Of a stretch of DNA of 64,000 nt, positions 55,214-61,301 are shown in pieces (the stretch's first letter is position 1; every line of letters starts with the position of its first letter). The position numbers and the translations under genes were made by a program. The stretch lies in the NCBI RefSeq assembly GCF_058153355.1, contig NZ_CM177019.1; one strand, given 5' to 3'. The notes below the pieces were generated by a model, which saw only the letters and a program-made list of their open reading frames with translations, searched no databases and was not told where the DNA came from.

Positions 55214-57451
55214 GTGGACTGGCTTCTTGATGTTTTTGCAACCTGGCTATATGGCTTAAAAATAATCGCGATAACGTTAGCGGTCATCATGTTCATCAGC
55301 GGGCTGGACGATTTTTTTATTGATGTCGTCTACTGGGTACGCCGCATTAAACGCAAGTTGAGTGTTTATCGCCGCTACCCGCGAATGAGTTACCGCGAAC
55401 TGTATAAACCAGATGAAAAACCGTTAGCGATTATGGTTCCGGCGTGGAATGAAACGGGCGTCATCGGCAATATGGCCGAGCTGGCGGCGACCACGCTCGA
55501 CTATGAAAACTATCATATCTTTGTTGGCACCTACCCCAACGACCCAGATACTCAGCGTGATGTTGACGAAGTGTGCGCTCGCTTCCCAAACGTGCATAAG
55601 GTAGTCTGCGCGCGTCCTGGCCCCACCAGCAAAGCCGACTGCCTGAACAACGTGCTGGACGCCATCACCCAGTTTGAGCGTAGCGCCAATTTCGCTTTTG
55701 CTGGTTTTATTCTGCATGACGCCGAAGACGTAATTTCACCGATGGAATTGCGTCTGTTCAACTATCTGGTCGAGCGTAAAGATCTGATTCAGATCCCGGT
55801 ATACCCATTCGAACGCGAATGGACGCACTTCACCAGCATGACTTACATTGATGAGTTTTCAGAACTGCATGGCAAAGATGTTCCGGTGCGTGAAGCCCTC
55901 GCCGGACAGGTGCCCAGCGCAGGCGTCGGTACTTGTTTCAGCCGCCGCGCCGTGACCGCACTGTTAGCTGACGGTGACGGTATTGCTTTCGACGTGCAGA
56001 GTCTTACTGAAGATTACGACATTGGTTTCCGCCTGAAAGAAAAAGGTATGACGGAAATTTTTGTCCGTTTTCCGGTGGTGGACGAAGCCAAAGAACGCGA
56101 GCAGCGTAAATTTTTACAGCACGCGCGGACGTCAAACATGATCTGCGTGCGCGAATATTTCCCCGATACCTTTTCGACGGCGGTTCGACAAAAATCTCGC
56201 TGGATCATCGGCATTGTTTTCCAGGGCTTTAAAACCCATAAATGGACCTCCAGCCTGACGCTGAACTACTTTCTCTGGCGCGACCGCAAAGGGGCAATCA
56301 GTAACTTTGTCAGCTTCCTCGCGATGCTGGTGATGATCCAGCTTTTGCTGTTACTGGCGTATGAAAGTTTGTGGCCCGATGCCTGGCATTTCCTTTCTAT
56401 TTTCAGCGGCAGCACATGGTTAATGACCCTGCTGTGGCTAAACTTTGGTTTGATGGTTAACCGCATCGTGCAGCGGGTGATTTTTGTCACTGGCTACTAC
56501 GGTCTGACGCAGGGGCTGCTATCTGTCCTGCGTCTTTTCTGGGGCAACCTGATTAACTTTATGGCTAACTGGCGCGCATTAAAACAGGTACTTCAACATG
56601 GCGATCCACGTCGCGTGGCGTGGGATAAAACAACGCATGACTTCCCCAGCGTGACTGGCGATACCCGCTCGCTGCGCCCGTTAGGTCAAATTCTGCTGGA
56701 AAATCAGGTCATCACTGAAGAACAACTCGATACAGCACTGCGTAATCGCGTCGAAGGTCTACGCCTGGGCGGTTCAATGCTGATGCAGGGGCTGATTAGC
56801 GCCGAGCAACTGGCACAGGCGCTGGCAGAGCAAAACGGCGTGGCGTGGGAATCTATCGATGCCTGGCAGATCCCTTCTTCGCTGATTGCCGCGATGCCGG
56901 CCTCCGTGGCGCTGCATTATGCAGTACTGCCGCTGCGTCTGGAAAATGATGAGTTAATTGTCGGCAGTGAAGATGGTATTGACCCGGTTTCGCTGGCAGC
57001 CCTGACGCGTAAAGTCGGACGCAAAGTGCGTTACGTCATTGTTCTGCGGGGACAAATTGTCACGGGGTTACGTCACTGGTATGCACGCCGACGCGGTCAC
57101 GATCCGCGGGCAATGTTGTACAATGCGGTTCAGCATCAGTGGCTCACGGAACAGCAGGCCGGTGAAATCTGGCGGCAATATGTGCCGCATCAGTTCCTGT
57201 TCGCCGAAATACTGACCACGCTCGGTCATATTAATCGTTCAGCAATTAACGTGTTGTTATTGCGCCATGAACGCAGTTCTCTGCCGCTCGGCAAGTTTTT
57301 GGTCACCGAAGGCGTTATCAGCCAGGAAACGTTGGATCGCGTCCTGACAATTCAACGCGAATTACAAGTTTCGATGCAATCACTATTACTCAAAGCAGGT
57401 TTAAACACAGAACAGGTTGCGCAACTGGAGTCCGAAAATGAAGGAGAATAA
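55214..57451 (+). CDS. nfrB: Inner-membrane glycosyltransferase with C-terminal c-di-GMP-binding domain; phage N4 adsorption protein B
   Basis: 745-aa ORF MDWLLDVFATWLYGLK... (GTG start); matches NfrB. Confidence 0.9.
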   Translation: MDWLLDVFATWLYGLKIIAITLAVIMFISGLDDFFIDVVYWVRRIKRKLSVYRRYPRMSYRELYKPDEKPLAIMVPAWNETGVIGNMAELAATTLDYENYHIFVGTYPNDPDTQRDVDEVCARFPNVHKVVCARPGPTSKADCLNNVLDAITQFERSANFAFAGFILHDAEDVISPMELRLFNYLVERKDLIQIPVYPFEREWTHFTSMTYIDEFSELHGKDVPVREALAGQVPSAGVGTCFSRRAVTALLADGDGIAFDVQSLTEDYDIGFRLKEKGMTEIFVRFPVVDEAKEREQRKFLQHARTSNMICVREYFPDTFSTAVRQKSRWIIGIVFQGFKTHKWTSSLTLNYFLWRDRKGAISNFVSFLAMLVMIQLLLLLAYESLWPDAWHFLSIFSGSTWLMTLLWLNFGLMVNRIVQRVIFVTGYYGLTQGLLSVLRLFWGNLINFMANWRALKQVLQHGDPRRVAWDKTTHDFPSVTGDTRSLRPLGQILLENQVITEEQLDTALRNRVEGLRLGGSMLMQGLISAEQLAQALAEQNGVAWESIDAWQIPSSLIAAMPASVALHYAVLPLRLENDELIVGSEDGIDPVSLAALTRKVGRKVRYVIVLRGQIVTGLRHWYARRRGHDPRAMLYNAVQHQWLTEQQAGEIWRQYVPHQFLFAEILTTLGHINRSAINVLLLRHERSSLPLGKFLVTEGVISQETLDRVLTIQRELQVSMQSLLLKAGLNTEQVAQLESENEGE

Positions 57452-60410: not shown

Positions 60411-61301
60411 ATGCGTAAGTTCATTTTCGTATTGCTGACACTGCTTTTGGTCAGCCCTTTTTCCTTTGCGATGAAAGGTATTATCTGGCAACCACAAAAC
60501 CGTGATAGTCAGGTTACCGATACCCAGTGGCAGGGGCTGATGAGTCAGTTACGTTTGCAAGGCTTCGATACCCTGGTTTTACAATGGACCCGTTACGGCG
60601 ATGCATTCACCCAGCCAGAACAGCGCGCGTTATTGTTTAAGCGTGCCGCAGCTGCGCAACAGGCTGGCCTGAAGCTGATTGTCGGGCTGAATGCCGATCC
60701 GGAATTTTTTATGCACCAGAAACAGTCATCCGCGGCGCTGGAAAGCTATCTTAATCGCCTGCTGGCTGCCGATCTCCAGCAAGCCAGCTTATGGAGCGCC
60801 GTACCTGGCGTAACGCCGGATGGCTGGTACATCAGCGCGGAAATTGACGACCTGAACTGGCGCAGCGAAGCCGCCCGTCAACCTTTGCTGACATGGTTAA
60901 ACAACGCGCAGCGGCTGATTAGCGATGTTTCAGCAAAACCGGTTTATATCAGTAGTTTTTTCGCCGGAAACATGTCGCCCGATGGCTATCGCCAACTGCT
61001 GGAACACGTTAAAGCAACCGGCGTTAATGTCTGGGTACAGGATGGCAGCGGCGTGGATAAACTTACTGCTGAACAGCGTGAACGTTATCTACAGGCCAGC
61101 GCCGATTGCCAAAGCTCCGCCCCAGCAAGCGGCATTGTTTATGAACTGTTTGTCGCCGGCAAAGGCAAAACCTTTACAGCGAAACCGAAACCGGATGCAG
61201 AGATCGCCTCGCTGTTAGCGAAACGTTCCTCTTGCGGTAAAGACACGCTCTATTTCTCTCTGCGCTATTTGCCCGTCGCGCACGGCATTCTCGAGTATTA
61301 A
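60411..61301 (+). CDS. ybcH: Secreted protein of the nfrBA-ybcH operon
   Basis: 296-aa ORF with signal peptide MRKFIFVLLTLLLVSPFSFA; its start codon abuts the nfrA stop. Confidence 0.8.
   Translation: MRKFIFVLLTLLLVSPFSFAMKGIIWQPQNRDSQVTDTQWQGLMSQLRLQGFDTLVLQWTRYGDAFTQPEQRALLFKRAAAAQQAGLKLIVGLNADPEFFMHQKQSSAALESYLNRLLAADLQQASLWSAVPGVTPDGWYISAEIDDLNWRSEAARQPLLTWLNNAQRLISDVSAKPVYISSFFAGNMSPDGYRQLLEHVKATGVNVWVQDGSGVDKLTAEQRERYLQASADCQSSAPASGIVYELFVAGKGKTFTAKPKPDAEIASLLAKRSSCGKDTLYFSLRYLPVAHGILEY

What the first reader, a model, noticed from the sequence alone, without database searches (positions are those of the whole stretch)
55214..61301. nfrB-nfrA-ybcH forms a tightly coupled operon downstream of the AT-rich islet
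nfrB overlaps nfrA by 14 nt, and the ybcH start codon abuts the nfrA stop, so the three are translationally coupled. Together they read as a c-di-GMP-controlled glycosyltransferase, an outer-membrane component and a secreted partner, which is both the phage N4 receptor and a polysaccharide secretion machine. The unknown ORF and AT-rich DNA sit immediately upstream and may influence its promoter.
Basis: partly seen in the sequence, partly recalled or inferred. Interest (0 to 1): 0.35.

Follow-up and report, generated by a model that had tools for sequence, protein, structure and literature searches.

The report
Known nfrBA-ybcH phage-N4 glycan operon
This is the already published E. coli nfrB-nfrA-ybcH operon, which makes and exports the surface sugar that phage N4 uses as its receptor, and the AT-rich stretch upstream is an unrelated leftover of a toxin-immunity island, so the finding is correct but ordinary.

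Summary
nfrB (55214-57451) overlaps nfrA (57438-60410) by 14 nt, and the nfrA stop is followed directly by the ybcH ATG (TAAATG, 60408-60413).

The three proteins are 99.6%, 98% and 98% identical to E. coli K-12 NfrB, NfrA and YbcH, with all catalytic and c-di-GMP-binding motifs intact. The operon, its 14-nt overlap, c-di-GMP control and role in phage N4 infection were published in 2021 (PMC8669469, PMC8669472). The finding is therefore already known.

Three modest additions:
- **Junctions:** gene spacing of -14 to +1 nt is conserved in six taxa, out to Rhodanobacter.
- **The AT-rich islet (53969-~55064):** this is a reduced version of a variable toxin/immunity island sitting between cusS and nfrB in roughly half of E. 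coli. Its 148-aa ORF is a conserved HEAT-repeat protein whose homologs sit directly after Rhs toxin genes, so it is most likely an orphan immunity gene. It is not part of the nfr system.

The ~150 nt next to nfrB match K-12. Any effect of the islet on the promoter is untested.

The parts
53948..53968 (+). Alternative 3' end of cusS at the left junction of the island. CusS ends ...VIGLPERE here, against ...VITLPA in K-12.
53969..55064 (.). AT-rich islet. It is a reduced form of the variable toxin/immunity island that occupies the cusS-nfrB spacer in many Escherichia. Left boundary ~53948-54149; ORF module ~54201-54838; right boundary 54839-55064. Each piece is shared separately with other strains.
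   Evidence: GC 31-36%. BLAST map against L001, L003, L004, L005 and L014. Island contents in other strains: PAAR-like, WD40, SUKH-3, SMI1/KNR4, RHS fragments, ISAs1.
54326..54772 (+). 148-aa HEAT-like repeat protein, probably an orphan Rhs-toxin immunity gene. Translation may begin at the second ATG, 54332.
   Evidence: 40 homologs. Profile matches alphaRep/HEAT proteins at E 3e-10. HEAT_2 in 8 of 24 family members. Model pLDDT 90, eight helices. dN/dS 0.10-0.19. Homologs lie directly after Rhs genes that share one C-terminal toxin domain.
55065..55213 (+). Native nfrB upstream region, about 95% identical to the whole 149-nt cusS-nfrB spacer of K-12 and ST131. Presumed to contain the operon promoter.
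   Evidence: RpoH-holoenzyme SELEX peak in this spacer in K-12 (PMC5493296).
55143..55171 (+). Candidate sigma70-like promoter (CTGTCA, 17-nt spacer, TAATAT). It lies in the only upstream block also conserved in Citrobacter amalonaticus. A candidate only.
55214..57451 (+). nfrB: inner-membrane GT2 polysaccharide synthase with a C-terminal MshEN c-di-GMP-binding domain. GTG start.
   Evidence: Pfam GT2 2e-40 and MshEN 1.6e-13. NCBIfam NfrB equivalog at 1332 bits. 742/745 identical to K-12; TED at 265-267 and QKSRW at 326-330.
57438..57451 (+). 14-nt overlap between the nfrB 3' end and the nfrA 5' end. GGAG at 57427-57430.
   Evidence: Stated for K-12 in PMC8669469.
57438..60410 (+). nfrA: outer-membrane TPR plus beta-barrel export protein.
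   Evidence: Pfam NfrA_C 2e-67 and TPR families. NCBIfam equivalog at 1874 bits. 970/990 identical to K-12.
60411..61301 (+). ybcH: exported DUF4434 protein with a glycoside-hydrolase-like TIM barrel. Signal peptide residues 1-20, with S-F-A before M21.
61311..61339 (+). 13-bp hairpin 10 nt after the ybcH stop. Probable 3' end or stabiliser of the operon transcript, though the U-tract is weak.
   Evidence: dG -19.1 kcal/mol, z -3.8, 0 of 200 shuffles as stable

Best explanation
Window 55214-61301 is the E. coli nfrB-nfrA-ybcH operon. It is a synthase-dependent exopolysaccharide system.

- **NfrB** is an inner-membrane GT2 synthase switched on by c-di-GMP bound to its MshEN domain. It polymerises a sugar derived from UDP-ManNAc.
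- **NfrA** uses periplasmic TPR repeats and a beta-barrel to pass the polymer through the outer membrane.
- **The polymer (NGR)** is what phage N4 attaches to.
- **YbcH** is exported to the periplasm. It is most likely the pathway's glycoside hydrolase, the counterpart of BcsZ or the PgaB C-terminal domain, and not a passive scaffold.

The three genes are transcribed from a promoter in the ~150 nt before nfrB. They are packed so tightly (-14 nt and 0 nt) that ribosomes finishing one gene probably start the next.

The AT-rich islet upstream is a separate accessory module. It is what remains of a polymorphic toxin/immunity island inserted at the 3' end of cusS, and it keeps one HEAT-repeat orphan immunity gene.

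*Shown:* gene identity, geometry, domain content, conservation, and the genomic company kept by the ORF's homologs. *From the literature:* c-di-GMP binding, the N4 requirement and FliA-dependent expression in K-12. *Inferred:* translational coupling, YbcH catalysis, the immunity function, and promoter position.
For: **Geometry and identity**
- Coordinates and junctions.
- Identity to K-12 is 742/745, 970/990 and 290/296, with no internal stops and TED and QxxRW intact.
- Domains.
- Published operon, 14-nt overlap, c-di-GMP Kd of 1 uM, N4 phenotypes and FliA/RpoS regulation: PMC8669469. NGR model: PMC8669472.
- Junction distances of -14 to +1 nt in E. coli, E. albertii, Citrobacter, Pluralibacter, Pragia and Rhodanobacter, with GGAG before the starts in Enterobacterales.
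- Strong hairpin after ybcH.

**YbcH**
- Model pLDDT is 91.4.
- Invariant E144 sits on strand 4 and invariant E245 on strand 7.
- An AxA-type signal-peptidase motif is conserved across the family.

**Islet**
- K-12 and ST131 have only 149 nt here.
- Other strains carry PAAR-like, SUKH, RHS and ISAs1 genes at this site.
- Homologs of the ORF lie directly downstream of Rhs genes in Vibrio mangrovi, Snodgrassella and a metagenome contig. The C-terminal ~115 aa of those Rhs proteins are 58-62% identical to each other.
- dN/dS is 0.10-0.19.
Against: - No transcript data were available. Co-transcription in this strain, the promoter position and translational coupling are inferred.
- No sigma28 consensus better than chance lies upstream of nfrB (best 10/16; 660 equal scores in the window). 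This is despite the published FliA dependence, which may therefore be indirect.
- YbcH lacks the Asn that usually precedes the acid/base Glu in clan GH-A (it reads A-E-I). Foldseek E-values against PDB are only 1e-5 to 1e-4, and non-hydrolase TIM barrels appear further down that list.
- ybcH deletion leaves N4 plating intact in K-12.
- PMC8669469 states that YbcH lacks a signal-peptidase site, which conflicts with my reading of the conserved AxA motif.
- No cognate toxin remnant sits next to the 148-aa ORF in E. coli, so the immunity role rests on homolog context.
Confidence: 0.85

Rival explanations
1. The islet is functionally tied to the operon: it regulates nfrBA-ybcH. This could work through the ORF's product, through H-NS silencing that spreads from the AT-rich DNA, or through read-through from an islet promoter.
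For: - The islet ends about 80 nt upstream of the candidate -35.
- GC of 31-36% is typical of H-NS-bound DNA (the H-NS link is general knowledge).
- There is a promoter-like site at 54208-54235.
- No terminator-like hairpin lies between the ORF and nfrB.
- The ORF is on the same strand as nfrB.
Against: - The operon works in K-12 without any islet.
- Roughly half of E. coli lack the islet.
- nfr operons in Citrobacter, Pluralibacter, Pragia and Rhodanobacter have no such ORF upstream.
- Homologs of the ORF associate with Rhs toxins instead.
- The protein is a HEAT-repeat binder with no DNA-binding domain.
- Promoter-like sites in this region are no more frequent than in shuffled sequence (7 found, 9.9 expected).
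Confidence: 0.2
2. YbcH is a non-catalytic periplasmic scaffold or inner-membrane-anchored accessory protein, as proposed in PMC8669469. It is not a hydrolase.
For: - This is the published interpretation.
- The Asn of the GH-A NEP motif is missing.
- There is no sequence-level match to any solved hydrolase.
- The deletion phenotype is only partial.
Against: - Two Glu residues invariant across 30 sequences, down to 43% identity, sit exactly where GH-A enzymes carry their catalytic pair.
- Hydrolases of other synthase-dependent systems also give mild deletion phenotypes (general knowledge).
Confidence: 0.35
3. The 148-aa ORF is a chance open frame in AT-rich DNA, or a decaying pseudogene, with no function.
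For: - No Pfam or NCBIfam family matches it.
- The Shine-Dalgarno motif is weak.
- It lies in a region that has clearly lost neighbouring cassettes.
Against: - There are 40 homologs down to 43% identity in several genera.
- dN/dS is 0.10-0.19.
- The fold model is confident.
- The family profile matches HEAT-repeat proteins at E 3e-10.
Confidence: 0.05

Closest known systems
E. coli K-12 nfrBA-ybcH (b0569-b0567), the Nfr/NGR exopolysaccharide system (Junkermeier & Hengge 2021, PMC8669469; Sellner et al. 2021, PMC8669472)
   Same: Same genes, same order, same 14-nt overlap and same TAAATG junction. Proteins are 98-99.6% identical. The flanks are the same (cusRS upstream, envY downstream), and so are the proximal 149 nt upstream.
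   Different: This strain has a ~1.1-kb AT-rich islet with one extra ORF between cusS and the native upstream region, and a different CusS C-terminal tail.
Synthase-dependent exopolysaccharide systems: cellulose (BcsA/B/C/Z), PNAG (PgaABCD), alginate and Pel
   Different: The c-di-GMP receptor is an MshEN domain, not PilZ (Bcs, Alg) or the synthase interface (Pga). The substrate is proposed to be UDP-ManNAc. YbcH is a DUF4434 protein with no assigned GH family.
Clan GH-A beta-mannosidases and mannanases (GH5, GH113, GH164) and BT_0435 (PDB 4h41)
   Different: Only 8-15% identity. No Asn before the strand-4 Glu. No activity has been shown.
Rhs / polymorphic-toxin immunity genes and orphan immunity arrays (for the 148-aa ORF)
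   Same: Homologs start 2 nt after, or overlap by 4 nt, the end of Rhs genes that carry one shared C-terminal toxin domain. Other copies sit in arrays alongside Imm-NTF2, TriTu, Imm26, Imm39, CdiI_N or SUKH genes.
   Different: In this window and in other Escherichia no toxin gene precedes it. The HEAT-repeat family has no Pfam or NCBIfam model, and no protection assay exists.

Membership tests
Nfr (NfrB-NfrA-YbcH) c-di-GMP-activated exopolysaccharide system | NfrB has a GT2 domain with the processive-synthase signatures DxD, TED and QxxRW | tested here: met
   Pfam GT2 at 2e-40. TED at 265-267 and QKSRW at 326-330. 742/745 identical to K-12, with differences only at positions 17, 401 and 560.
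Nfr (NfrB-NfrA-YbcH) c-di-GMP-activated exopolysaccharide system | C-terminal MshEN c-di-GMP-binding domain in NfrB | tested here: met
   Pfam MshEN 1.6e-13. NCBIfam c-di-GMP motif 1.4e-18 at residues 489-540. Actual c-di-GMP binding is not testable here.
Nfr (NfrB-NfrA-YbcH) c-di-GMP-activated exopolysaccharide system | NfrA has TPR repeats and the NfrA_C outer-membrane barrel | tested here: met
   NfrA_C 2e-67 plus TPR families. NCBIfam equivalog at 1874 bits against a cut-off of 1223.
Nfr (NfrB-NfrA-YbcH) c-di-GMP-activated exopolysaccharide system | Third gene encodes a DUF4434 protein, in the order nfrB-nfrA-ybcH with tight junctions | tested here: met
   DUF4434 6e-69. NCBIfam equivalog at 519 bits. 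Junctions of -14 and 0 nt. Same order in six taxa.
Nfr (NfrB-NfrA-YbcH) c-di-GMP-activated exopolysaccharide system | Required for phage N4 adsorption; polymer synthesis depends on WecB and DgcJ | not testable with these tools
   Shown only for K-12 in PMC8669469 and PMC8669472.
Clan GH-A glycoside hydrolases (for YbcH) | (beta/alpha)8 barrel with catalytic Glu at the ends of strands 4 and 7 | tested here: met
Clan GH-A glycoside hydrolases (for YbcH) | Asn immediately before the acid/base Glu (N-E-P motif) | tested here: not met
   The sequence is S-A-E-I-D-D. The residue before E144 is Ala, Pro or Ile across the family. YbcH is therefore not filed as a GH-A member, only as GH-like.
Clan GH-A glycoside hydrolases (for YbcH) | Measured glycosidase activity | not testable with these tools
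   No assay is possible. No paper linking DUF4434 to an activity was found.
Polymorphic-toxin (Rhs) immunity proteins (for ORF 54326-54772) | Small gene immediately downstream of, and co-oriented with, the toxin-encoding 3' end | tested here: inconclusive
   Met for homologs in L010, L013, L015 and L016. Not met in the window itself, where no toxin remnant is present. Hence 'orphan'.
Polymorphic-toxin (Rhs) immunity proteins (for ORF 54326-54772) | Immunity family co-occurs with one particular toxin domain | tested here: met
   The C-terminal ~115 aa of the three upstream Rhs proteins are 58-62% identical (E 1e-44 to 1e-89), while the rest of those proteins differs.
Polymorphic-toxin (Rhs) immunity proteins (for ORF 54326-54772) | Neutralises its cognate toxin | not testable with these tools
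   Needs a co-expression or competition assay.

The most novel reading that the evidence does not exclude
Two readings are not excluded.

1. YbcH (DUF4434) is an active periplasmic glycoside hydrolase with a mannosidase-like fold. It would use E144 and E245 to trim or release the ManNAc-based N4 receptor glycan. That would make it the missing enzymatic component of the Nfr pathway and the founder of an uncharacterised hydrolase family.
2. The strain-variable toxin/immunity island next to the nfrB promoter changes how much receptor glycan different E. coli lineages display, and so changes their sensitivity to N4-like phages.
Probability: 0.4. Interest if true: 0.4.

Novelty: already known. Interest (0 to 1): 0.15.

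Why it matters
The operon is textbook material for people working on c-di-GMP signalling and N4-like phages, so confirming it adds nothing new.

The side results have practical value:
- A testable enzymatic role for YbcH could help isolate and define the still uncharacterised NGR polymer.
- Knowing that the cusS-nfrB spacer is a recombination hot spot for toxin/immunity cassettes explains why annotation and upstream sequence differ between strains.
- Insertions and stop codons in nfrB seen in some genomes may matter when predicting susceptibility of clinical E. coli to N4-like therapeutic phages.

Tried and rejected
- **Sigma28 promoter:** I scanned 53969-55300 for TAAAGTTT-N10-12-GCCGATAA, as expected from the published FliA dependence. 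The best score near nfrB was 10/16, a score reached 660 times in the window, so it is not informative.
- **Generic sigma70 and terminator scans:** no enrichment over shuffles. Folding the segments between cusS, the ORF and nfrB gave no significant hairpins.
- **Family searches for the 148-aa ORF:** Pfam (to E = 10) and NCBIfam (to E = 1) found nothing for this sequence. Only the family profile and distant members revealed HEAT repeats.
- **Foldseek of the ORF model against PDB:** only weak HEAT/ARM matches (E at least 0.03).
- **Remnant of the cognate Rhs toxin:** tblastn against the window and the E. coli loci found none. Pfam could not name the toxin domain (Ntox47 at E 0.13 only).
- **Sequence-profile search of PDB with YbcH:** nothing.
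- **Literature on DUF4434 as a hydrolase, or newer YbcH work:** nothing relevant.
- **The ORF as a regulator of nfrB:** considered and rejected. It has no DNA-binding domain, is absent from most nfr loci, and associates with Rhs toxins.
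Full report
**1. Observation**

The ORF list and the raw sequence confirm every coordinate in the finding.
- nfrB starts at GTG 55214 and ends at TAA 57449-57451.
- nfrA starts at ATG 57438, giving a 14-nt overlap, and ends at TAA 60408-60410.
- The ybcH ATG at 60411 follows that stop directly (TAAATG), and ybcH ends at 61301.
- GGAG motifs lie 7 and 11 nt before the nfrA and ybcH starts, inside the preceding genes.
- The DNA between cusS (stop at 53968) and nfrB falls to 31-36% GC, against ~50-55% in the flanks.
- It contains a 148-aa ORF at 54326-54772. 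That ORF ends 441 nt before nfrB.

**2. Identity**

- Pfam finds GT2 and MshEN domains in NfrB, TPR repeats plus NfrA_C in NfrA, and DUF4434 in YbcH.
- NCBIfam equivalog models for NfrB, NfrA and YbcH are all passed well above their cut-offs.
- Against K-12 MG1655 the proteins are 742/745, 970/990 and 290/296 identical. There are no internal stops, and TED 265-267 and QKSRW 326-330 are intact.
- The 6.1-kb block is found at 95-99% identity, with at least 80% coverage, in 5048 of 5426 complete E. coli genomes.
- The flanking genes are cusRS upstream and envY downstream, as in K-12.

**3. What is already published**

Junkermeier & Hengge 2021 (PMC8669469) describe the nfrBA-ybcH operon of K-12 and state the 14-nt overlap. 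They also show:
- c-di-GMP binding by the MshEN domain (Kd about 1 uM);
- local activation by DgcJ;
- low, post-exponential, FliA/FlhDC-dependent and RpoS-repressed expression;
- a requirement for nfrB and nfrA, but not ybcH, for N4 plating;
- conservation of the cluster in 406 species.

Sellner et al. 2021 (PMC8669472) propose that the machine exports a ManNAc-based glycan, NGR, which is the primary N4 receptor. From my own memory, not checked here, the overlap of nfrA and nfrB was already in the title of a 1993 paper by Kiino and colleagues.

**4. Tight junctions are conserved**

Using YbcH homologs I fetched nfr loci from other taxa and read their junctions. The table gives the distance in nt from the upstream stop to the downstream start.

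| Taxon | nfrB to nfrA | nfrA to ybcH |
|---|---|---|
| E. coli (window) | -14 | 0 |
| E. albertii | 0 | 0 |
| Citrobacter amalonaticus | -14 | -1 |
| Pluralibacter gergoviae | -4 | -1 |
| Pragia fontium | +1 | -1 |
| Rhodanobacter terrae | -4 | -4 |

The exact overlap is not conserved. E. albertii has two extra bases that turn the overlap into a TAAATG abutment. Close packing is conserved throughout, which fits co-translation but does not prove it.

A 13-bp hairpin at 61311-61339 (dG -19.1 kcal/mol, z -3.8) follows ybcH and probably marks the 3' end of the transcript.

**5. YbcH**

The literature calls it a putative periplasmic scaffold anchored in the inner membrane.
- An AlphaFold model built from a 30-sequence alignment is confident (pLDDT 91.4) and forms an eight-stranded beta/alpha barrel.
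- Foldseek agrees, but weakly.
- Invariant E144 lies on strand 4 and invariant E245 on strand 7, which is the clan GH-A arrangement.
- The Asn that normally precedes the strand-4 Glu is absent.
- The N-terminus has a hydrophobic core followed by a conserved small-x-Ala motif (S-F-A before M21). I read this as a signal-peptidase I site, contrary to the paper.

I conclude, at about 55-60% confidence, that YbcH is the pathway's periplasmic polymer-cleaving enzyme. The mannose-type neighbours fit a ManNAc polymer, but that link is only an inference.

**6. The islet**

K-12 and ST131 have only 149 nt between cusS and nfrB. Window 55065-55213 is about 95% identical to that whole spacer. The extra ~1.1 kb therefore sits between the end of cusS and the native nfrB upstream region. 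It also replaces the last codons of cusS, so CusS ends GLPERE instead of TLPA.

Other strains carry larger inserts at the same site:
- SMI1/KNR4 plus two small ORFs;
- RHS fragments, DUF7919 and ISEc1;
- PAAR-like, WD40, SUKH-3 and ISAs1 genes plus the same small ORF.

The window equals the arrangement of strain 2020CK-00188 minus a 1.5-kb segment that holds a second small ORF. About 2489 of 5426 genomes match some part of the islet, mostly its right boundary. E. albertii has the ORF next to a CdiI_N gene, also upstream of nfrB.

**7. The 148-aa ORF**

It is a real gene.
- It has 40 homologs down to 43% identity in Escherichia, Citrobacter, Cronobacter, Klebsiella, Hafnia, Gilliamella, Snodgrassella and Vibrio.
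- dN/dS is 0.19 and 0.10 against two Escherichia copies.
- The eight-helix model is confident (pLDDT 90).
- The family profile matches designed HEAT-like alphaRep proteins at E 3e-10.
- 8 of 24 family members hit Pfam HEAT_2.

Its homologs keep the company of Rhs toxins.
- In Vibrio mangrovi the homolog starts 2 nt after a 1625-aa Rhs gene in a PAAR/DUF4123 cluster.
- In Snodgrassella and in a metagenome contig it overlaps the end of an Rhs gene by 4 nt.
- Those three Rhs proteins share a ~115-aa C-terminal domain (58-62% identical, E 1e-44 to 1e-89) that no Pfam model names.
- In Gilliamella and Hafnia the homolog sits in arrays of small ORFs that include known immunity families.

No trace of that toxin lies beside the ORF in E. 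coli. The best reading, at about 80% confidence, is an orphan immunity gene.

**8. Does the islet affect the nfr promoter?**

This cannot be decided here.

Evidence that the native promoter region is intact:
- The only upstream block conserved between Escherichia and Citrobacter holds a weak sigma70-like pair (CTGTCA-17-TAATAT, 55143-55171). It lies about 80 nt downstream of the islet's right edge.
- In K-12, genomic SELEX placed an RpoH-holoenzyme peak in the cusS-nfrB spacer. nfrB is not listed for sigma28 (PMC5493296).
- I found no sigma28 consensus better than chance.

Evidence that leaves an influence possible:
- No terminator-like structure separates cusS or the ORF from nfrB, so read-through is conceivable.
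- AT-rich DNA could attract H-NS (general knowledge).

Both of these points remain speculation. K-12 does without the islet.

**9. Verdict**

The finding is accurate and its core interpretation is supported, but it restates a published system. Novelty is 'already known' and interest is low. The residual value lies in the proposed hydrolase role of YbcH and in recognising the upstream islet as a degraded toxin/immunity island that is not part of the operon.

Noticed in passing
window 53948-55064; L001, L003, L004, L005, L014: The cusS-nfrB spacer is a hot spot for polymorphic toxin/immunity cassettes in Escherichia. It carries PAAR-like, WD40, SUKH-3, SMI1/KNR4, CdiI_N, RHS fragments and ISAs1/H-repeat elements, with shared left and right boundary sequences and modular gain and loss. 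K-12 and ST131 have an empty site of 149 nt.
   Followed up: partly
L010 7540-7999; L013 ~3750-4097; L015 ~6650-7004: An unnamed Rhs C-terminal toxin domain of about 115 aa (motifs GTYSxSRxANIKSGLNPTHTPHH and LARDIxDLRxIL) is 58-62% identical across Vibrio, Snodgrassella and a metagenome contig. It is always followed by a HEAT-repeat gene of the ORF148 family. No Pfam family matches it.
   Followed up: partly
window 53948-53968: CusS has two alternative C-terminal tails. It ends ...VIGLPERE (482 aa) in the sequences that carry the island sampled here (the window, L001 and L005). It ends ...VITLPA (480 aa) in K-12, so the island junction lies inside the last codons of cusS.
   Followed up: partly
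E. coli records (NZ_CP023142.1, NZ_CP195942.1, NZ_CP150994.1, NZ_CP104114.1): Some complete genomes have the operon disrupted. There is an internal stop in nfrB (CFSAN061770), an IS2 insertion (strain C1), an ISEcp1/CTX-M-55 insertion within the block (CUVET16-465) and a truncated nfrB (USMARC-51408). 183 of 5426 genomes have no match at all. These strains would be predicted resistant to N4-like phages.
   Followed up: no
RefSeq annotations seen: Many PGAP records label this gene 'nrfB' and the product 'NrfB'. That is a misspelling of nfrB, and it collides with the name of the nitrite-reductase cytochrome gene nrfB.
   Followed up: no
L014 5540-5550 (E. albertii): E. albertii has two extra bases at the nfrB end (GAATAAATG instead of GAAAATG). 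NfrB is 4 residues shorter there, and the 14-nt overlap becomes a direct stop-start abutment.
   Followed up: yes
window 54941-55132: A 63-aa TTG ORF spans the islet's right boundary and the native spacer. It has no family match and is probably not a gene. Some strains annotate a 56-aa ORF on the opposite strand in the segment that is missing from the window.
   Followed up: partly
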